Notes: generated by a model not told the origin, from the letters alone. 38,333 nt of DNA from Parasphingopyxis sp. (GCA_041746035.1 JBGTHW010000069.1:1-38333); one strand, 5' to 3'. Positions 18,101 through 33,872 are shown, counted from the stretch's first letter. Numbers and translations: made by a program.

Positions 18101-18190
<90 letters not shown>

Positions 18191-18367: not shown

Positions 18368-21300
18368 GTGCATCTGTACGATAAGAGATCGGGTCCGTCG
18401 TTCGATCCGTTCTGGTCGATCCCCGACATGCCATCGGCCGAAGCATGGACCGATTCCCTGTTCGCTTGCGGTCGGGCCGACGATACGGCGGGGTGGGTCG
18501 CGGCTGCGCGCGCGCTGTTGCTGCGGCTTCCGCCGACACCGTCTCGCTATCGAAGAGACGTGACCTGGTCGGTTTCGGACTCGCTGACGAATTTGCCGCT
18601 GACCGGGCCTTTCAGCCTGGAAACCCGGCTCGGGCTTGTGAATATCGCCCAGTATCTGCCGACCTGGCAAATTTTGCGCGAGATGCCGCAAGATGGCGAA
18701 GGATTCGATCCTTTTCTCGCCATTCTGGGCAGTATCCCGGAGGCGCACAGGCTGCTCGAGCGGATTATCGAGAAGGGCGGATGGCTTGCTGAAAGCCCCC
18801 AACGCTGGCGGGAGGTCTGCGCGGCGGCGGAGCAACGGGACGATTTTTCCCGGACGGACAGGCTCATGGTGAGGCTTTTCAGGCTGTCGGGATCCACGGT
18901 TGCCCGTGAGCTCCCCGCTAGTGCCGCAAGACCGGACGTTCCCCGGTATTTCGACAGCGGTACCGACCCTGCTGCGATGGCCTCGGGCTTGCGAAAAAAA
19001 ATGCGGGGGAGCAGCAATTTTCTCCTTATTTTCGAACTGCTGCGGCAGGCCGAAACACTCGAGGGCAGGGACAGGGAACGCGCGCGGCTGGAAATCGGCC
19101 AGGCCTTCGCGGAATGCGATTTCGACCGGGCGTTTGCGGATCAGGAACGGGAACCGATCATTGCGGTCGCGAAGGATCTGCGCCCGTGGTTCCTGCCCAA
19201 AGCGTTCGGTCTTTGCGGGCGCGACCCGACTCCGTTCTACCATTGTCTGCTCGGCGATCCGCTGGCGCATGGCGTTTTGCGCGCGATGCTCAAAAAGCAG
19301 CCGGTCGATCGCCGTCCTCTTCGCAGCTGGATCGAAGATATCGTCGATCGAAATCAGGCCTGTAGCCCGCCCCAACTTTCGTTGGGGCTGGCGCACTTTA
19401 TCGGCCATCGGGACGGGCGCCTTACCGCGTTGTACGATGCGCTGGAGCAGCGGAACATCGCCGACGGCGAAGCCGCTGCGCCAGTATTTGCCGATGACAG
19501 GAAGGTCGTCGGATCATGGCTGAAACAGGGCACGGACGAGGCACGGAACGAACGAAACGGCGAGGCCGCAGCCGCATTCGTGGAAAACGGCAACGTCTGG
19601 CGCGCCATTTTTGCGCTTTCGCAGAACACACCGCATGGCTCGCCCGATTTTGCGGACGGCCTCGCTGCACTTTCGCCTTACCTGGCAAACGGTGCCTATC
19701 GTCTTGCCCTGTGCTCTGTGGTTCTTGCCCGGAGTTTCGACACCGGGGCAATACTCGATCTCGCCGGACATTTGCGGGAGCTGGGCTTCGATGTGCTGGC
19801 CGCAAATCTGCTGGCAACAAGGACCGGCTCGTCGAAGACCGCAGCGCGGCTGTTCGGCCGGATTATGGACAAGCTCGCCTCGCCCCGAGACCGGGTCGCG
19901 CTCTGGGAAGAACTCGGCGCGATCCATTCCGGCCCGGTTTTTCGGTCGCACCTCGCGACGGCCCAGAACGATGCGTTGCTGTATCGCGAAGCCGAACAGA
20001 CGATGCAAAAATTGCGCACGGCTTCCGGGGAGCGCCCCGGCCTGGTGCGTGCGAGGTTGCAGCTATTCGGCAAACGCGGAGATTTGACGAGGGCCATACG
20101 ATCCGCCGATGAGTATCTTGCGCAGTTTCCCGAGTCCAGGCCCCTCGAAAGCGATACGTGGCGATACAGGTTCGAGGCCGGCGAGTGGCATTTCGATGAG
20201 TCCGAGGAAGAGCGTCTGGAGGATCGCACCCAGCTTGCCTATTTCCGGTTGAGGGCGGATCATTTCGTCACCCGCGGCGAGAGCGCGAAAGCCGAGGCCA
20301 TCCATACCGACATTGCCCGGCTGACCGGCCAGGCACCCGACTATCACCGGCTGCTCAACGCGAAATTCGGCGCGGGAAAATTTGCCGAAGCGGCGGCGTT
20401 TTGCGGACAGCTGAAAATGCGGTTTCCGGGCGATCGCAGCTTCTGGAAAAAATCGGCGCAAGTGGCGGAACGGCTGCGAAATTATGACGCCATGCTGGAT
20501 AATTGCGTGGAGTTGCTCGCGCTGAAACCCGACGATCAAAATGCGCGATCCGCGCTTGCCCGGGCGCTTGTCTATCTGGACCGGGACCGCGAGGCGCTCG
20601 ACTGGCTGGACGATTGCCAGGGCGAAACCGACGATACCGTCTGGGTCGATGCGATGCGCGCCTTTGCCCATGCGCGTCATGGCAGGGGCGGGGAAGCGTC
20701 GGCGGCGCTGGGCGAGGTTTATCGCCGGTGCCGTGCCATAACCGACGAGTATCGGGCGGGGCAGGCGCGCGACCCGGCGGATACGCTGCTGCTCGATGGT
20801 CGGCATGTTGCGCACCAGAATCCCGAAGCCGCGCCGATCTATGCGAATTTCAACCGCTGCCTTGAGCGGCTGACGCAGGGCCCCGTTGCGCTTATCGGCA
20901 ATGCGCCGTCGATACTCGGCAGCGGGCTGGGCAAGGAAATCGATTCCTTCGAAACAGTGGTGCGGCTGAACGATTTTGTCATCGAAGGCTATGAGGCAGA
21001 CCTCGGCGAGCGGGTCGATTTCTGGTATTCCTCGGCCAACCGCCAAGCGTCTCCGCACCGGCCGAGCGTGGCGAAGGCGACGGTCATTATGAAGCAGAAT
21101 TTCGCGCAGCATTTCCCGGAAGTGCGAAAGTTCAGCCAGGGCAGGCTGGGGTTCGAGGTCGATCCGGCAACCAGCACCTATCTGCCGCCGTGCTTCGCAA
21201 TGATGAGCGAAGGGCTGACCTATCCGTTCCCCAGCACCGGCTTTCGGATGATCCAGATTCTCGAGTTTCTGGTACAAACCGAATATACCACATTCGGTTT

Positions 21301-21451
21301 CGACTTTTTCAAGTCCGACGAGATGCATTATTTCGACAAGGGTGAAACGCACCTGCAGATCGGCGAAGTGCACGCCATCGATTTCGAGCGCGATTTCGTG
21401 GCGACGGTGCTGGAGCCCTATGGGCGGTATGGAAGTTTCCGCCGCACCTAA
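18368..21451 (+). CDS. ~1030 aa helical/TPR-repeat protein with C-terminal GT29 (sialyltransferase-like) domain; start uncertain (18320, 18368 or 18428)
   Basis: TPR-like helices (~20040-20740, e.g. LLALKPDDQNARSALARAL). Sialylmotifs occur in order: L (VALIGNAPSILGSGLGKEIDSFETVVRLNDF..GYEADLG), S (PSTGF...FGF), III (HYFD), VS (HAIDFE). GTG start follows AAAGGA. Confidence 0.82.
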   Translation: MHLYDKRSGPSFDPFWSIPDMPSAEAWTDSLFACGRADDTAGWVAAARALLLRLPPTPSRYRRDVTWSVSDSLTNLPLTGPFSLETRLGLVNIAQYLPTWQILREMPQDGEGFDPFLAILGSIPEAHRLLERIIEKGGWLAESPQRWREVCAAAEQRDDFSRTDRLMVRLFRLSGSTVARELPASAARPDVPRYFDSGTDPAAMASGLRKKMRGSSNFLLIFELLRQAETLEGRDRERARLEIGQAFAECDFDRAFADQEREPIIAVAKDLRPWFLPKAFGLCGRDPTPFYHCLLGDPLAHGVLRAMLKKQPVDRRPLRSWIEDIVDRNQACSPPQLSLGLAHFIGHRDGRLTALYDALEQRNIADGEAAAPVFADDRKVVGSWLKQGTDEARNERNGEAAAAFVENGNVWRAIFALSQNTPHGSPDFADGLAALSPYLANGAYRLALCSVVLARSFDTGAILDLAGHLRELGFDVLAANLLATRTGSSKTAARLFGRIMDKLASPRDRVALWEELGAIHSGPVFRSHLATAQNDALLYREAEQTMQKLRTASGERPGLVRARLQLFGKRGDLTRAIRSADEYLAQFPESRPLESDTWRYRFEAGEWHFDESEEERLEDRTQLAYFRLRADHFVTRGESAKAEAIHTDIARLTGQAPDYHRLLNAKFGAGKFAEAAAFCGQLKMRFPGDRSFWKKSAQVAERLRNYDAMLDNCVELLALKPDDQNARSALARALVYLDRDREALDWLDDCQGETDDTVWVDAMRAFAHARHGRGGEASAALGEVYRRCRAITDEYRAGQARDPADTLLLDGRHVAHQNPEAAPIYANFNRCLERLTQGPVALIGNAPSILGSGLGKEIDSFETVVRLNDFVIEGYEADLGERVDFWYSSANRQASPHRPSVAKATVIMKQNFAQHFPEVRKFSQGRLGFEVDPATSTYLPPCFAMMSEGLTYPFPSTGFRMIQILEFLVQTEYTTFGFDFFKSDEMHYFDKGETHLQIGEVHAIDFERDFVATVLEPYGRYGSFRRT

Positions 21452-22146
21452 TTCTGCGAGCAGTTTTTGCTCTTTGCCAAGGCCTTGTTGATGAAAACGG
21501 CGTTGCAGCGTCGCAGATAAAGCGTGTCCCGGCTCTCCAGACGAAAAAGTCTGAAGTCGAAGAGCCGGTAACCCATCGCTTCGAGGACGTGCTTGAAACT
21601 CTCCAGCGGTATATGGCGGTCGTTCTCCGGGTTGAGGCCAGTTTCCACTTCGACAAAGCCGATTTTCCCCGTCAGGAGCTGTTTCGAAAACCCGAGCAGT
21701 GCGGCCATGTCATGGCCTTCGGCGTCGATTTTCAGGAAATCGACATATTCGATCTGCCGTCCCCTGCAAAAAACGTCGCCGGTGGTCATCGGCACATCGA
21801 CGGTGTCAGCCCGGGTGGCTTCCGTGACGATGCGGTTAGTGGTCGCCGTGCCGCGGGCCAGCATCGGCACGGTGGCCACTGTGGAACCCAGCGCCAGACT
21901 GTGACAGGATACCAGAGGATCCGCTCCCCATTTCTGTTCGAGCGCGGCAAAGCTATCGGGCGCAGGTTCGAATGCGAAAATTTTCGTTTCAGGGAACGCT
22001 GTTCGCACGGAACGGACAGTCTGGCCGATATTGGCCCCGACATCGAAATAGATATCGAGCGAGATATCCGGAAGATAACGGGCGATCTTCCTTGCCAGCG
22101 GCACGACATTCTCGGGATCGGAATCTCGCGATTTCTCCTTGCTCAT
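21448..22146 (-). CDS. FkbM family SAM-dependent methyltransferase
   Basis: FDVGANIG, IFAFEP, ALG, DFLKIDAEGHD. Confidence 0.92.
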   Translation of the reverse strand: MSKEKSRDSDPENVVPLARKIARYLPDISLDIYFDVGANIGQTVRSVRTAFPETKIFAFEPAPDSFAALEQKWGADPLVSCHSLALGSTVATVPMLARGTATTNRIVTEATRADTVDVPMTTGDVFCRGRQIEYVDFLKIDAEGHDMAALLGFSKQLLTGKIGFVEVETGLNPENDRHIPLESFKHVLEAMGYRLFDFRLFRLESRDTLYLRRCNAVFINKALAKSKNCSQN

Positions 22147-24020
22147 CAGCGGCCGATCTCAAGCGGGATATCGTATTCGTCCCGATAGCCATGATATTCC
22201 GCGATCAGCGGATATTTGCGGTATTCGTCTTCGACGAGCAGCCTGAACCGGGCTCCGCCAATGAAATGCACGATCTTGGCCTGCTCATATGCCGCCTGCA
22301 TCAGCTCCTCGTCATCCGTATGCACTTTGAAATTATAGGCATCGGGCATATAAATTTTTGGAAAAGGACGGAAAACAGCGTTGAATATCGGCTGGTCGCG
22401 CAAATGCGATGTTCGGCCCTTGGCCAGTTCCTCAAGCGCCAGAGCGAAGCGTTCTTCGCCGAGCAAGTCACCACCGAACAGCATGACACCCGCATTGAAA
22501 TGGCCGCGCACCAGGGTGCGTGTCCGCTGTTCGCCGAGCGATTTTCCCCCGGACACTGCCGCGATCGTCTCGCGAGGATTTTTGCGCCCCTCGATATCGA
22601 AGAGCACGTCAATCGGCGCGCGCGTCATGGTGTCGGCATCGAGCCAGATTACGGTATCATACTGGTCGTATTTCAGGATCGACAGTTTCAGAAAAGCTGC
22701 CTTTTTGCTTGGAACCTTCGCGTCGGCGGTTTTCACTCCCGGTCGAGCCGCAATGATTTCGTCGCTGAGAAAATCGGAACCGGGGCTGTGGAATATCACA
22801 TTGCCATAGACGAAACGCAGCCGGTCGCGATTGGCTTTCGAGAGTGGCGCGTAGGTATCGTCATGCAGCATAACGACATCGAAATCGTCGAGATTGGGCG
22901 TATTTTTTTTCAGCGCTGCCAGCCAGACCATTCCCAGCGTCAGAAAATTATCGGTGACGATGGTTACGATAAGGGTTTTGCTGCGCGGTTCCGCTGGCGG
23001 CGCGGAAATCGACCGTATCTCCTGTTGCCGAACCTTGTTCCGGTTTCCCCCGGTGCCAGCGATGGAGGAAACCGATGGCTTGCGGGCGATCAGCGTCAGG
23101 CAGCCGCGCGGATTGTCGAACGCGCTGTCTTTCGGAGGGTTGTAAATCGTATCCGCGCGATCTTCGATCTTGTTATATGTCTTGTTCAAAGGGCGGCACA
23201 ATAGCAGCTCCAGATCGAGTTTCCGGCCTATATTGTGCAGGGACTCAGGCGTGAAAAACAGCGTGTGCGGTTCATGCTTGTAGTGGTAGGTTTTCCATCC
23301 CAGTCCGCCGGGCGGCACTTCGATATAGAAGATGCCGCCGGGGTTCAGCCGGTCCACAAGCTTCGTGAGACGGGGCAGGACATCGCCATACTGGAAATGC
23401 TCGAGGCTGTGGGAGAGCAGGATGACGTCGTAGCGGAAATCGCCGACGGTATCCCAGTCGACGATCCTGGCACCGATGTGATCGAGGAAGGGGCGCGAAT
23501 ATCGGTCGTGCTCCAGCGCAAAGCTCTCTCTGGCACCTGCCGTCCTAAGCGCATAGCCGGGCCCGGAGCCGATATCGAGCATCGCGCCGATATCGGGCAT
23601 GCGTTTCCGGATACGACTGATTTGCGTCCGTGCGCGGTTTCGATACCGGGCGAGGTTTCCGGGCGGCGTGTCCGAATCCATCCGGGCAAAATACTGCTCC
23701 GGGTCTGCTTCGCGATCGCCGCGATTATCGACCGCATATTCGTCACGGTAATAGTCGTCCAGTTCGAAGGACGTCTCGGGAACCATGCCAAAGCCGCAAT
23801 TGCCGCACCATAAAACGATCTGCCGGGCGAAGAGCGCGCTTGAAAAGAAAGGATAGGCCGAGATGTGCGACGTTTGCTTGTCGCAACAAATGCATCGCGC
23901 CTTGCGGATGTCCGGCATTTCCCAGAAGGCGAGAGGCTGTTCCCTGATAGCCAGCCCGAAAGGCTTGTTTTGTCGGGGTTTTGCCAAGCCCGGGTCCGGC
24001 GGATTTTTTTTCGGATTCAT
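22146..24020 (-). CDS. Fusion of class I SAM methyltransferase (N-terminal, Cys-rich lead-in) and GT8 family glycosyltransferase (C-terminal)
   Basis: N-term CICC...WCGNCG, LDIGSGPG, SHSLEH, LNPGGIFYIEVP; C-term VIWLDAD (DxD), FNAGVM, DQPIFN, YNF, KIVHFIG. Confidence 0.85.
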   Translation of the reverse strand: MNPKKNPPDPGLAKPRQNKPFGLAIREQPLAFWEMPDIRKARCICCDKQTSHISAYPFFSSALFARQIVLWCGNCGFGMVPETSFELDDYYRDEYAVDNRGDREADPEQYFARMDSDTPPGNLARYRNRARTQISRIRKRMPDIGAMLDIGSGPGYALRTAGARESFALEHDRYSRPFLDHIGARIVDWDTVGDFRYDVILLSHSLEHFQYGDVLPRLTKLVDRLNPGGIFYIEVPPGGLGWKTYHYKHEPHTLFFTPESLHNIGRKLDLELLLCRPLNKTYNKIEDRADTIYNPPKDSAFDNPRGCLTLIARKPSVSSIAGTGGNRNKVRQQEIRSISAPPAEPRSKTLIVTIVTDNFLTLGMVWLAALKKNTPNLDDFDVVMLHDDTYAPLSKANRDRLRFVYGNVIFHSPGSDFLSDEIIAARPGVKTADAKVPSKKAAFLKLSILKYDQYDTVIWLDADTMTRAPIDVLFDIEGRKNPRETIAAVSGGKSLGEQRTRTLVRGHFNAGVMLFGGDLLGEERFALALEELAKGRTSHLRDQPIFNAVFRPFPKIYMPDAYNFKVHTDDEELMQAAYEQAKIVHFIGGARFRLLVEDEYRKYPLIAEYHGYRDEYDIPLEIGR

Positions 24021-24023
24021 GGA

Positions 24024-25235
24024 TTATTTCTTTTCGGCCTGAATGGGCCGCGACCTGACGGTTTCGTCATATCGGGCAAGCAGCAATTTCTCGCAGATTT
24101 CGCGCACGGCACCGTTGCCGCCGGCCCTGTCGAGAATCAGATCGGCAACAGCCAGGGCCTCGCGCCGGGCATCGCGTGGTGCTACTGCCAGCCCTGCGGC
24201 CTGCATACAGTCGATATCGTTCACGTCATTGCCGACGAAGCAGATGGCACCGAGAGCGATATTATTGTCGTCGGCCCATTTGTGCAGGGCGGCAAGCTTG
24301 TCATTCTCGCCATGAATGACCGGCAGCTTCAGTTTTTCGGCGCGCCGCGCGACAACGGCGTTCGTTTCTTTCGACAGGATGAGGATCGGCATTCCGGTCG
24401 CCCGCAGCCGCTCGATCCCCAAGCCGTCGCTGCGCGAGCAGCGCACGGTTTCGCGCCCGTCCTGGTCGACGGACAGGGTGTCGTCGGTATGCACGCCGTC
24501 GAAATCGGTCACCAGCGCGCGAACCCGCGCCAGCGCCGGGACAAGGGTATCGGGCGCATCGATCGCCGTCGCCAAGGCCCGTGCCTGGTCAAGATCCTCG
24601 ACCGTGTCGATTTCGACCCTAGGGTGGGATGTCGGCACGAGGCCCACCGGGCCGCAAAACCTCGTTTCCGTCTTGCGGAAGCTCTCCACCCGCATGGCAT
24701 AGGCCGCGCCGGTCTCAAGATATTGCGGCGGCAAATCCTGGCGGCGTTTGCGCGGTTCGCGTGCATCGTAATTAAGCCCCCGTCCCGATCCATCCTCTGC
24801 GATTGCCCAGAGGAAGCCGTGATTTTCGACAACCGTCAGCGCCGCGTCGAACCGGTCATCGTCTAGCGTCGCAACAAGACTGTCGAGATCCGCGGCACTC
24901 GTGAACGGAGACGTGCACTGGATCATGACGAGCAGATCGGGGGAAAGTGACGCTATTGCCGGATCCTCGAGCGCGCTCAGCAATGCGGATTCGGAAGACG
25001 CCAGATCGCCTGCAATATCGGCGGGACGACGGATTTTTCCGGCCCCGGCCTGTGCCGCGATGTCGAGAATAGTCTCGTCATCGCTGGACACAAACACGGC
25101 ATCGATGCGGGTCGCCGATAGGGCCGCCTGTATCGATCGCACGACCAGAGGCACGCCACCGACCTTGGCCAGGTTTTTCCCCGGAACGCCTTTCGACCCG
25201 CCTCTCGCAGGAATGACTGCGACGGTCGGTCCCAT
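24024..25235 (-). CDS. neuA: Bifunctional acylneuraminate cytidylyltransferase / HAD (KdsC-like) phosphatase
   Basis: IPARGGSKGVPGKN, QCTSPF, RRQD, ETGAAY, EIDTVED, then HAD motifs DFDGVHTDD, SDGLG, K, GNDVND, GGNGAVRE. Confidence 0.92.
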   Translation of the reverse strand: MGPTVAVIPARGGSKGVPGKNLAKVGGVPLVVRSIQAALSATRIDAVFVSSDDETILDIAAQAGAGKIRRPADIAGDLASSESALLSALEDPAIASLSPDLLVMIQCTSPFTSAADLDSLVATLDDDRFDAALTVVENHGFLWAIAEDGSGRGLNYDAREPRKRRQDLPPQYLETGAAYAMRVESFRKTETRFCGPVGLVPTSHPRVEIDTVEDLDQARALATAIDAPDTLVPALARVRALVTDFDGVHTDDTLSVDQDGRETVRCSRSDGLGIERLRATGMPILILSKETNAVVARRAEKLKLPVIHGENDKLAALHKWADDNNIALGAICFVGNDVNDIDCMQAAGLAVAPRDARREALAVADLILDRAGGNGAVREICEKLLLARYDETVRSRPIQAEKK

Positions 25236-25236
25236 G

Positions 25237-26112
25237 TCAGGCCGCCTGGCTATCCTGTTCGCGCCATTTCAGCTTGTCGCGCTGGACCTGCTCGACCGGC
25301 AGGATGTCTTGGGATTTCCGGCCAAGCGACATTTCGACATTTTTCAGATCCCGAACGAGCCGGCGCAGTCCGTCGGGCTCGAGACTGGCGGCGTGATCGG
25401 TGCCCTTCCATGTGCGATCCAGCGTAAAATGCCGCTCGACATATTGCGCGCCGAGCGCGACCGCAGCGACATCGGCTGCGATACCCAGATGATGGCCTGA
25501 AAAAGCGATGGCCTTGACGCGGCCTTCATATTTTTCTCGCAGGCGCGTAATTTCGCCAAGGCAGATATCCTCGAATGCAACCGGATAGCCCGATGTGCAG
25601 GAATAGATGACGAGATCTTTGGCGCGATCGAAACCTTCGTAGAATTCGACGATTTCGGCAATCTCCGCCTGGGTCGTCATGCCGGTCGAGACGTGAATCT
25701 CGCCCTCGAAATGGCGGCACAGCCATTCCTGCAGGGGCCAGTGCAGATTGGTGGCAGAGGGGATTTTGAGCAAGCGCGGCTTCAGCGGGGCCATCTGCTG
25801 CGCCGATGTCAGATCCCAGACCGATGTCGAATATTCGATATTCTCCGAGCGGCAATGCTCCAGAAGCTCCTGGTGCTGGTCTACATTGAATTCGAGCGCC
25901 TCGCGATGGGCACCATAGGTTGCGCCATAGGCGTTTTCCGGCACCGGATGCTGCGTTTCATACTGTTCTCTGGAAAGCAGTTCGATATTGTGGCGCTTCT
26001 GGAATTTCGCGACATCCGCTTTGCAGACCCGCGCCGCGACGGAGATCAGTTCTTTGGCGATTTCCATATCGCCTTTGTGATTGCAGCCGATTTCGGCGAT
26101 TACCTGTACCAT
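25237..26112 (-). CDS. neuB: N-acetylneuraminate synthase family, short form (probable KDN-/Neu5Ac-9-phosphate synthase)
   Basis: IAEIGCNHKGD, KFQK, KIPS, STGM, CTSGYP, FSGH, ERHFTLDRTWKGTDHAASLEP; 291 aa with no C-terminal antifreeze/SAF domain. Confidence 0.92.
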   Translation of the reverse strand: MVQVIAEIGCNHKGDMEIAKELISVAARVCKADVAKFQKRHNIELLSREQYETQHPVPENAYGATYGAHREALEFNVDQHQELLEHCRSENIEYSTSVWDLTSAQQMAPLKPRLLKIPSATNLHWPLQEWLCRHFEGEIHVSTGMTTQAEIAEIVEFYEGFDRAKDLVIYSCTSGYPVAFEDICLGEITRLREKYEGRVKAIAFSGHHLGIAADVAAVALGAQYVERHFTLDRTWKGTDHAASLEPDGLRRLVRDLKNVEMSLGRKSQDILPVEQVQRDKLKWREQDSQAA

Positions 26113-33518: not shown

Positions 33519-33872
33519 ATGGTAGACGAACCGCACACTCAGGAAGAAGTTGAGCGTGAAATTCTCTCGGTTCTTGAAGACGGAAGAGTTCGGACAACCG
33601 GAGAGATTACAAAACAGGTCAAATTACGTCTTCCGTTGACACCCGAAGACAAGCAGCGTGCAGCCAAGCGGCCAAATGAAAGCAAGATCGACCAGATTAT
33701 CGCCAACGCTCTTCAAGAAAAAAGAACTCTATGTAAATCCGGACTGATACAACGGGTTGCACGTGGTGAGTTTAAGATCACGGAATCCGGCCAGTCCCGG
33801 ATGAAAGAAAGAACGGCACGGTTGGAGCGATTGCGAGCAAAATTAGATAAGTTAGATAAGGGCGCTCAATAG
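33519..33872 (+). CDS. Stand-alone winged-helix protein, Mrr N-terminal-like
   Basis: ILSVLEDGRVRTTGEI..LPLTPED...KSGLIQRVARGEFKITESG resembles Mrr_N; GGGGAG RBS; visibly more AT-rich than its neighbours. Confidence 0.65.
   Translation: MVDEPHTQEEVEREILSVLEDGRVRTTGEITKQVKLRLPLTPEDKQRAAKRPNESKIDQIIANALQEKRTLCKSGLIQRVARGEFKITESGQSRMKERTARLERLRAKLDKLDKGAQ

What the first reader, a model, noticed from the sequence alone, without database searches (positions are those of the whole stretch)
18368..26112. Self-contained nonulosonate (probably KDN) glycosylation locus with a eukaryote-type GT29 sialyltransferase
Seen: a tightly coupled operon neuB > neuA-HAD > MTase-GT8 > fkbM (gaps of 1 and 3 nt, then a 1-nt overlap) converges, with overlapping stops, on a ~1030 aa TPR-GT29 gene beside tRNA-Ser. 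Known: NeuB + HAD phosphatase + NeuA make a CMP-nonulosonate, and characterised bacterial sialyltransferases belong mainly to GT38/42/52/80/97/100, while GT29 is the animal/plant family. Inference: this is a complete donor-synthesis, transfer and O-methylation module of eukaryote-like design, acting on an unknown acceptor in a sphingomonad.
Basis: partly seen in the sequence, partly recalled or inferred. Interest (0 to 1): 0.85.

Follow-up and report, generated by a model that had tools for sequence, protein, structure and literature searches.

The report
Bacterial GT29 sialyltransferase with KDN cassette
A sphingomonad carries a five-gene cassette that likely makes the sialic acid KDN and likely attaches it to a surface capsule, using an enzyme of the same family as animal sialyltransferases; such bacterial enzymes are already reported, but this cassette points to a testable donor sugar for one of them.

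Summary
The 1027-aa protein is a GT29 enzyme: PF00777 above cut-off, all four sialylmotifs, and mammalian sialyltransferases as top fold matches (Z 15.3), behind a TPR-like helical region. It belongs to a distinct subfamily of about 30 sequences. A NeuB gene lies beside it in 9 of 11 loci, and within the genus both occur in the same 3 of 18 genomes. KDN is the likeliest donor: NeuB lacks the SAF domain, the HAD domain has the Glu/Lys of the Bacteroides KDN-9-P phosphatase, and no NeuC passes its cut-off. Three claims weaken. Bacterial GT29s were reported in 2018, and the nearest relatives lack eukaryotic hallmarks. The cassette is not self-contained: relatives add transferases, and fkbM is not conserved. 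O-methylation is untested. The likely acceptor is a Kps-exported capsular glycan: kpsS/C and kpsE occur in 18 of 18 genus genomes, and no flagellin was found in the three carriers. The scan noted a similar short-NeuB/NeuA-HAD module with another sialyltransferase-like fusion in another genome. Verdict: new variant of a known kind.

The parts
18101..18189 (+). tRNA-Ser(CGA); its 3' side is a variable site in the genus (integrase-like ORFs follow it in several relatives). No integrase and no attR copy here.
18368..21451 (+). TPR-GT29 gene, 1027 aa (alternative start ATG 18428, 1007 aa). Helical/TPR region about residues 24-800, GT29 catalytic domain about 820-1027. No membrane-spanning segment by hydropathy.
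20888..21388 (+). GT29 sialylmotifs: L (G844-N845 ... R866-N868), S (P955-S-T-G958), III (H987-Y988), VS (H1002-x4-E1007). The L and S motifs carry no disulfide cysteines.
21448..22146 (-). FkbM-family SAM methyltransferase, 232 aa; no orthologue in the related loci
   Evidence: (TIGR01444 above cut-off)
22146..24020 (-). Fusion of a class I SAM methyltransferase (N-terminal CxxC pairs, residues about 40-320) and a GT8 glycosyltransferase (DAD 461, DQ 542, HFIG 585). The two are separate genes in G010 and G017.
24024..25235 (-). CMP-nonulosonate synthetase (NeuA) fused to a HAD phosphatase with Glu290/Lys301, matching Glu56/Lys67 of the Bacteroides KDN-9-P phosphatase
25237..26112 (-). Short NeuB-family nonulosonate(-9-phosphate) synthase, 291 aa, no SAF domain

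Best explanation
This is an accessory glycan cassette whose NeuB and NeuA-HAD likely make CMP-KDN, and whose TPR-GT29 protein, a GT29-family transferase, likely adds KDN to a capsular glycan that the genus-wide Kps ABC system would export. Steps: (1) NeuB condenses mannose-6-P with PEP to KDN-9-P (inferred). (2) The HAD domain removes the phosphate and NeuA activates KDN with CTP (domain identity shown, substrate inferred). (3) The cytoplasmic GT29 domain transfers KDN with inversion, using His1002 as base (fold and motifs shown, activity inferred from the family). (4) GT8 adds a hexose from a UDP-sugar, so that GT8 and GT29 extend or decorate the chain built on the KpsS/KpsC Kdo glycolipid; the TPR region docks on the chain or on partner enzymes (inferred). 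(5) One or both methyltransferases O-methylate the glycan (inferred, weakest step, not conserved across loci).
For: GT29: PF00777 above cut-off. Motif residues are invariant in 30 of 30 aligned sequences. Top fold matches are ST3Gal1 (Z 15.3, rmsd 3.5, 210 aligned), ST6GalNAc2 (Z 14.2), ST8SiaIII and ST6Gal1, ahead of Maf (Z 9.3) and GT42 (Z 8.7); Foldseek E 7e-9. Donor link: full-length TPR-GT29 and any NeuB occur in the same 3 of 18 genus genomes; NeuB is adjacent in 9 of 11 distinct loci, NeuA in 8 of 11, GT8 in 7 of 11. KDN: no SAF domain, whose Arg314 is reported essential in bacterial Neu5Ac synthase (PMC8208679 passages). Best NCBIfam HAD hit is the KDN-9-P phosphatase model (97.5 bits). 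Glu/Lys align with PDB 3E81 and differ from KdsC 4UM5, and are kept in 8 of 8 NeuA-HADs. NeuC is over cut-off in 0 of 3 carriers. L023 pairs the GT29 with a 765-aa CBS-NeuB-SAF-TIM synthase, close in size to the 2241-bp Serratia neuB with an extra isomerase domain whose capsule contains KDN (PMC9000132 passages). Capsule: kpsS/C in 18 of 18 and kpsE in 18 of 18 genus genomes; kpsM/T/E/D and kdsA/kdsB/kpsF/kpsS in this genome. The same NeuB/NeuA-HAD pair sits in a wza/wzc polysaccharide locus in G028. Other bacterial GT29s are fused to GT8, GT2, GT92 or DUF4422. An E. coli kps cluster encodes GT29-GT107 (PMC13171606). TPR domains are common in group 2 capsule polymerases (PMC11666461).
Against: No kps, wzx or wzy gene was seen in the DNA held around the 11 loci. 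In complete G010 the kps block lies about 180 kb away across the origin. That block has its own TPR-GT4, GT2 and GT4 genes; the TPR-GT4 is found in 17 of 18 genus genomes, so the kps system does not need this cassette. Because kps genes are in all 18 genomes, their presence in carriers says little about linkage. The HAD score is below the model's cut-off (97.5 against 180) and only 4 bits above KdsC. The Glu/Lys pair marks a nine-carbon 9-phosphate, not KDN over Neu5Ac (recalled). NeuB is at most about 36% identical to the other NeuB types compared and was not compared with a characterised KDN-9-P synthase. L024 has an AGE-family epimerase beside the GT29 gene, which could supply ManNAc. Relatives carry other ulosonate-transferase candidates that could use the same donor. 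GT8 was not seen in 4 of 11 loci (L016, L019, L020/21, L022; some truncated).
Confidence: 0.5

Rival explanations
1. Same CMP-KDN pathway, but the GT29 caps or builds a glycan that is not Kps-exported, such as a Wzy-type exopolysaccharide or a glycosphingolipid head group (a bacterial KDN-ganglioside-like lipid).
For: The cassette is unlinked to kps, and the kps block has its own glycosyltransferases. The same donor pair serves a wza/wzc locus in G028. Sphingomonads use glycosphingolipids in place of LPS (recalled), and a KDN-linked sphingolipid is reported in Emiliania huxleyi (PMC6200933 passage).
Against: No wzx or wzy was seen in the loci scanned. The protein has no membrane segment. An 800-residue helical region resembles polymer or protein handling more than lipid capping. 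Whether the 70% GC carriers L024 and L026 make sphingolipids was not determined.
Confidence: 0.2
2. The TPR region selects a protein acceptor and the GT29 adds KDN directly to it in the cytoplasm, as FlmG (TPR plus GT-B) does for flagellin or as OGT does.
For: N-terminal TPR plus C-terminal GT layout; the FlmG TPR binds flagellin (bioRxiv 2022.03.25.485807 passages). Foldseek lists OGT/SPY among many TPR matches. Maf-like genes lie in several loci. An RTX-repeat gene lies near one locus.
Against: Flagellin (PF00669) was found in 0 of 3 carriers, two of them 99% complete, while the control search hit 4 of 14 genomes. The OGT matches have TM-scores of about 0.2 and are generic TPR hits. Characterised GT29s sialylate glycans, not amino-acid side chains (recalled).
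Confidence: 0.12
3. The donor is not KDN: it is Neu5Ac (through a 9-phosphate), another nonulosonate, or CMP-Kdo from the genome's kdsA/kdsB.
For: Serratia KL1 makes some Neu5Ac with its KDN (about 1:20). AGE-type epimerase in L024. E. coli K6 GT29-GT107 is tied to a putative poly-Kdo. kdsA is in all three carriers. This genome also has a Pse cluster.
Against: NeuB lacks SAF; no NeuC over cut-off; the only UDP-GlcNAc 2-epimerase is the one beside wecC. The GT29 tracks neuB (3 of 18), while Kdo-related kps genes are in all 18. G010 and G017 have a single NeuB-family gene and no PseI.
Confidence: 0.18

Closest known systems
Bacterial GT29 sialyltransferase-like proteins (Petit et al. 2018, PMC5811610)
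   Same: Sialylmotifs L, S, III and VS; no membrane anchor and no L/S disulfide; alphaproteobacterial, including Sphingobium; one Sphingobium entry has a helical N-terminal extension (supplement 1 part 6).
   Different: The protein here has a helical region of about 800 residues and a distinct C-terminal signature that I did not see by eye in the supplement's bacterial sequences (part 6 of 56 read). It sits with a cognate donor pathway. The paper states that its trees could not predict function in bacteria.
Mammalian GT29 enzymes (ST3Gal1, ST6GalNAc2, ST8SiaIII, ST6Gal1)
   Same: Fold (Z 12.3-15.3) and catalytic motifs.
   Different: 15-21% identity; predicted cytoplasmic, no type II anchor, no disulfide, TPR-fused. 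They top the list among solved structures only; no bacterial GT29 appeared in these searches.
Bacteroides thetaiotaomicron CMP-KDN pathway (KDN-9-P synthase BT1714, phosphatase, CMP-KDN synthetase)
   Same: Synthase + HAD phosphatase + cytidylyltransferase; phosphatase Glu56/Lys67 positions kept.
   Different: Phosphatase fused to NeuA and NeuB without SAF. The closest solved HAD is 3MMZ (E 4e-37), which I recall as a Streptomyces protein.
ABC-transporter-dependent (Kps, group 2/3) capsule type-specific loci, e.g. E. coli K6 GT29-GT107 and TPR-bearing polymerases Cps3D/Cps7D
   Same: Donor synthesis, glycosyltransferases and modifiers in a variable cassette; TPR fused to a transferase; KpsS/KpsC/KpsMTED in the genome.
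   Different: The cassette is not flanked by kps genes, and the kps block has its own conserved glycosyltransferases. One GT domain per TPR protein.
FlmG flagellin glycosyltransferase
   Same: TPR plus nonulosonate transferase layout.
   Different: FlmG has a GT-B domain; no flagellin was found in the three carriers.

Membership tests
CAZy GT29 / PF00777 | Profile match above the curated cut-off | tested here: met
   48.2 bits against 23, E 1.3e-12
CAZy GT29 / PF00777 | Sialylmotifs L, S, III, VS with the catalytic His in H-x4-E | tested here: met
   Aligned to ST3Gal1; G844, N845, R866, G958, H987, Y988, H1002, E1007 invariant in 30 sequences
CAZy GT29 / PF00777 | GT-A-variant fold closer to GT29 than to GT42 or Maf | tested here: met
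   Z 15.3-12.3 for four GT29s against 9.3 (Maf) and 8.7 (GT42); model pLDDT 72.5
CAZy GT29 / PF00777 | Transfer of an ulosonate from a CMP donor | not testable with these tools
   Needs an enzyme assay
Eukaryotic (Golgi-type) GT29 | Type II membrane anchor and L/S-motif disulfide cysteines | tested here: not met
   Maximum 19-residue hydropathy 1.29; only Cys942 in residues 835-1027; 0 of 150 nearest hits have both features
KDN-9-P pathway (Bacteroides type) | NeuB + HAD phosphatase + NeuA without NeuC | tested here: met
   TIGR03568 over cut-off in 0 of 3 carriers, two 99% complete and the own genome 83%
KDN-9-P pathway (Bacteroides type) | Phosphatase Glu56/Lys67 in place of the KdsC residues | tested here: met
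   Alignment to 3E81, 4HGQ and 4UM5; kept in 8 of 8. Their role as specificity residues is recalled; the papers were not held.
KDN-9-P pathway (Bacteroides type) | Score above the NCBIfam KDN-9-P phosphatase cut-off | tested here: not met
   97.5 against 180 bits; best hit for the domain, KdsC 93.2. The model is an equivalog named for the Bacteroides enzyme.
KDN-9-P pathway (Bacteroides type) | Synthase uses Man-6-P | not testable with these tools
   No characterised KDN-9-P synthase sequence came up for comparison
Neu5Ac synthase NeuB / Pse synthase PseI | SAF domain and equivalog score | tested here: not met
   No SAF hit; TIGR03569 199 against 400 and TIGR03586 145 against 340
Kps ABC-transporter-dependent capsule system | KpsS, KpsC, KpsM/T/E/D and CMP-Kdo synthesis in the genome | tested here: met
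   KpsM, KpsE and KpsS score below the E. coli-type equivalog cut-offs
Kps ABC-transporter-dependent capsule system | Type-specific genes inside the kps cluster | tested here: not met
   Cassette on another contig here and about 180 kb away in G010
Kps ABC-transporter-dependent capsule system | Product attached to the Kdo glycolipid and exported by KpsMT | not testable with these tools
   Needs mutants and glycan analysis
FlmG flagellin glycosylation | GT-B domain and a flagellin acceptor | tested here: not met
   GT29 fold; PF00669 in 0 of 3 carriers

The most novel reading that the evidence does not exclude
The TPR-GT29 subfamily is a dedicated bacterial KDN-transferase that puts KDN on a non-capsule acceptor, either a sphingomonad glycosphingolipid (a bacterial ganglioside analogue) or a TPR-selected protein, with methylated KDN as the end product. 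It would be a living model of the alphaproteobacterial ancestor proposed for eukaryotic sialyltransferases.
Probability: 0.15. Interest if true: 0.85.

Novelty: new variant of a known kind. Interest (0 to 1): 0.45.

Why it matters
Bacterial GT29 proteins have been proposed as the source of eukaryotic sialyltransferases, but the paper that reported them could not assign their function (PMC5811610). A full-text search for GT29 + Kdo + Kdn + capsule + bacterial + transferase returned only that paper; searches listed no biochemical study of a bacterial GT29 by title or abstract, and subscription journals are not covered. This subfamily travels with its own donor pathway, so the donor can be tested directly. 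A soluble, disulfide-free GT29 could also be a useful KDN-transfer catalyst. The parts themselves (KDN synthesis, GT8, methyltransferases, TPR-fused capsule enzymes) are familiar.

Tried and rejected
Flagellin acceptor: rejected for the three genus carriers. Pseudaminate donor: unlikely, since G010 and G017 have no PseI. Recent integration at tRNA-Ser: no integrase in the window and no copy of the tRNA 3' end on its contig at 12-25 nt. There is no simple empty site either: in complete relatives the tRNA and the MFS flank lie far apart. GC3 of the cassette genes is 0.68-0.71 against 0.71-0.81 for ten neighbours, a mild difference only. Promoter and terminator scans were at chance level (4 found against 3.1 expected; 12 against 9.5). 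Plasmid search: no match. A class-wide sample of 400 genomes had 0 subfamily-level matches and 5 genomes with weaker GT29 matches; at most 6 candidates per genome were scored. The GTDB pattern scan found 1 locus among 53 pattern matches. Whole-protein Foldseek was dominated by generic TPR hits. PDB sequence searches were weak for GT8 (WbbM, E 0.017) and the MTase (E 0.002), and uninformative for FkbM. The full tree did not finish. A FastTree run on 79 rows put the 30 subfamily rows on one side of a branch with only 78% support and no eukaryotic rows, so no direction of transfer is claimed. kps genes could not be checked in the metagenome records. Three papers on the Bacteroides enzymes were not held. 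No complex prediction and no read mapping were run.
Full report
Observation. The five ORFs, their strands and junctions are as described, next to tRNA-Ser(CGA) at 18101-18189. Pfam assigns NeuB, NeuA plus HAD, methyltransferase plus GT8, FkbM and GT29 above their cut-offs. TPR profiles score just under cut-off in the window protein but above it in orthologues. The start may be ATG 18428 rather than GTG 18368, since homologues begin there. The window is a whole contig of an 83% complete genome. Named relatives are Parasphingopyxis.

The large protein is a GT29. [quoted passage not shown] The full model (pLDDT 86) is helical over residues 24-800 and ends in an alpha/beta domain. A separate model of that domain (pLDDT 72.5) matches ST3Gal1 (Z 15.3, rmsd 3.5, 210 aligned), ST6GalNAc2, ST8SiaIII and ST6Gal1 ahead of Maf and GT42; Foldseek agrees. 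The Atlas gave a mostly bacterial GT29 cluster for the homologue P0002 (score 0.90).

It is bacterial-type, not eukaryote-type. Petit et al. 2018 (PMC5811610; I read parts 1-3 of 7 of the text and part 6 of 56 of supplement 1) report 23 bacterial GT29s, 19 of them alphaproteobacterial, lacking the membrane anchor and disulfide. They propose these as the source of the eukaryotic enzymes and list Sphingobium members. The window protein also lacks anchor and disulfide. Of the best 150 hits among 1344 at E up to 0.001, 4 have an L-motif Cys, 1 has a hydrophobic N-terminus and 0 have both. The top 27 representative clusters score 189 bits or more on a subfamily profile, one scores 159 and the rest 113 or less (seven sequences built the profile). 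A FastTree run on 79 rows keeps the 30 subfamily rows together at 78% support. So this is a distinct but only moderately supported TPR-GT29 subfamily. It is rare: 3 of 18 genus genomes, no full-length match in 43 other relatives (three had weak TPR-only matches), and none in a 400-genome class sample.

Link to the donor pathway. Within the genus, NeuB-family genes occur in exactly the same 3 of 18 genomes. After merging duplicates (G017 with L012; L017, L018 and L025; L020 and L021) I hold 11 distinct loci, the window included. NeuB is adjacent in 9, NeuA in 8, GT8 in 7 and the methyltransferase orthologue in 5. The two loci without NeuB are short or cut at the gene's start (L019, L022). These loci are related and not independent. 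FkbM has no orthologue in the other loci, although other FkbM-family genes lie in the G010 and G017 loci. Relatives add Maf-like (below cut-off), GT42-GT8, sulfotransferase, PhyH and further methyltransferase genes. In G010, G017 and L016 a GSCFA-TPR gene lies upstream; in this genome three such genes are on another contig. The cassette sits at a different chromosomal site in G010 and G017. 'Self-contained' is therefore too strong.

Donor identity. NeuB lacks the SAF domain and misses the NeuB and PseI cut-offs. SAF-less synthases are described as an environmental group, and SAF Arg314 as essential in bacterial NeuB (PMC8208679, passages). The HAD domain's best profile is the KDN-9-P phosphatase, below cut-off. 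Its Glu290 and Lys301 align with Glu56 and Lys67 of PDB 3E81, where KdsC 4UM5 has Arg and Glu; they are kept in 8 of 8 homologues. That these residues set specificity is recalled. The phosphorylated route is described for KDN in Bacteroides and Prymnesium (PMC6200933, passages). No NeuC passes its cut-off in the three carriers. L023 pairs the GT29 with a 765-aa NeuB carrying CBS, SAF and isomerase-like domains, similar in size and extra domain to the Serratia NeuB needed for a KDN capsule (PMC9000132, passages); I did not compare those sequences. Against KDN: L024 has an AGE-family epimerase beside the gene, and no characterised KDN synthase was compared. I put KDN at about 0.75-0.8.

Acceptor. 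Flagellin was not found in the three carriers, two of them 99% complete, which removes the FlmG analogy as membership (bioRxiv 2022.03.25.485807, passages). The genome has kpsM/T/E/D with ugd, kdsB-kdsA-kpsF-kpsS, and kpsC, and kpsS/C and kpsE are in 18 of 18 genus genomes. TPR domains are typical of group 2 capsule polymerases and needed to extend the linker (PMC11666461, passages). An E. coli kps cluster encodes GT29-GT107 (PMC13171606, passages). Other bacterial GT29s are fused to GT8, GT2, GT92 or DUF4422. The same NeuB and NeuA-HAD serve a wza/wzc locus without this GT29 in G028. Against the capsule reading: the cassette is unlinked to kps, the kps block carries its own TPR-GT4, GT2 and GT4, and universal kps genes do not discriminate. 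The capsule model is the best single reading at about 0.5 jointly with KDN. Non-Kps glycan or glycolipid, protein, and non-KDN donors share the rest.

Methylation. Both methyltransferase domains are real, but no call identifies a substrate. O-methylated KDN in Streptomyces wall polymers is recalled, not checked.

Novelty. All parts belong to known families, and bacterial GT29s are in print. What I did not find in print (searches; open-access library only, bioRxiv supplements closed) is this TPR-GT29 subfamily or its coupling to a KDN-type pathway. An earlier scan note (e1-1092333) describes a comparable short-NeuB/NeuA-HAD module with another sialyltransferase-like fusion in a different genome; I did not test it. 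Verdict: new variant of a known kind, interest 0.45.

Noticed in passing
G000:C65:894-8128 (L107): A separate pseudaminic-acid cluster (pseI, pseF, pseB, pseC above cut-off; pseG just under) with an epimerase and an ATP-grasp gene, in a genome where no flagellin was found. L016 has a matching cluster directly beside its neuB.
   Followed up: partly
G000:C70:6150-13361 (L108): Three GSCFA-TPR genes; one is about 48% identical to the gene that lies upstream of TPR-GT29 in G010, G017 and L016. Function unknown, probably glycan-related.
   Followed up: partly
L112:7368-12541 (G010 kps block): TPR-GT4, GT2 and GT4 genes precede ugd-kpsMTED. The TPR-GT4 is found in 17 of 18 genus genomes and missing here, where contig C23 starts at ugd. 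Candidate conserved linker or core polymer enzymes.
   Followed up: partly
L072:7706-11059 (G275): Three tandem GT29 genes of about 380 aa in a 2.1 Mb, low-GC alphaproteobacterial genome, with no NeuB in the 20 kb held.
   Followed up: no
L010:1033-2949 and L017:786-3257: GT42 (CST-I)-GT8 fusion genes in the same loci as TPR-GT29, so two sialyltransferase families share one donor pathway.
   Followed up: no
L024:2857-7493: A second CMP-ulosonate-like module (cytidylyltransferase, HMGL-like aldolase, HAD) directly upstream of TPR-GT29, with similar genes in L026.
   Followed up: no
window 18101-18189 and L089-L102: In several genus members an integrase-like ORF follows tRNA-Ser(CGA) (recognised from translations, not scanned); in G015 a sulfotransferase-like ORF follows it. 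The site looks like a hotspot for accessory cassettes.
   Followed up: partly
G000:C63:2030-7654: A 1874-aa ORF with 23 GGxGxD repeats (RTX-like) beside a wecB/wecC-like pair; an RTX-repeat gene also lies near TPR-GT29 in L021. Possible glycosylated surface protein.
   Followed up: no
window 33519-33872: Stand-alone Mrr N-terminal domain gene after sdhA, in a lower-GC stretch at 33-35 kb.
   Followed up: no
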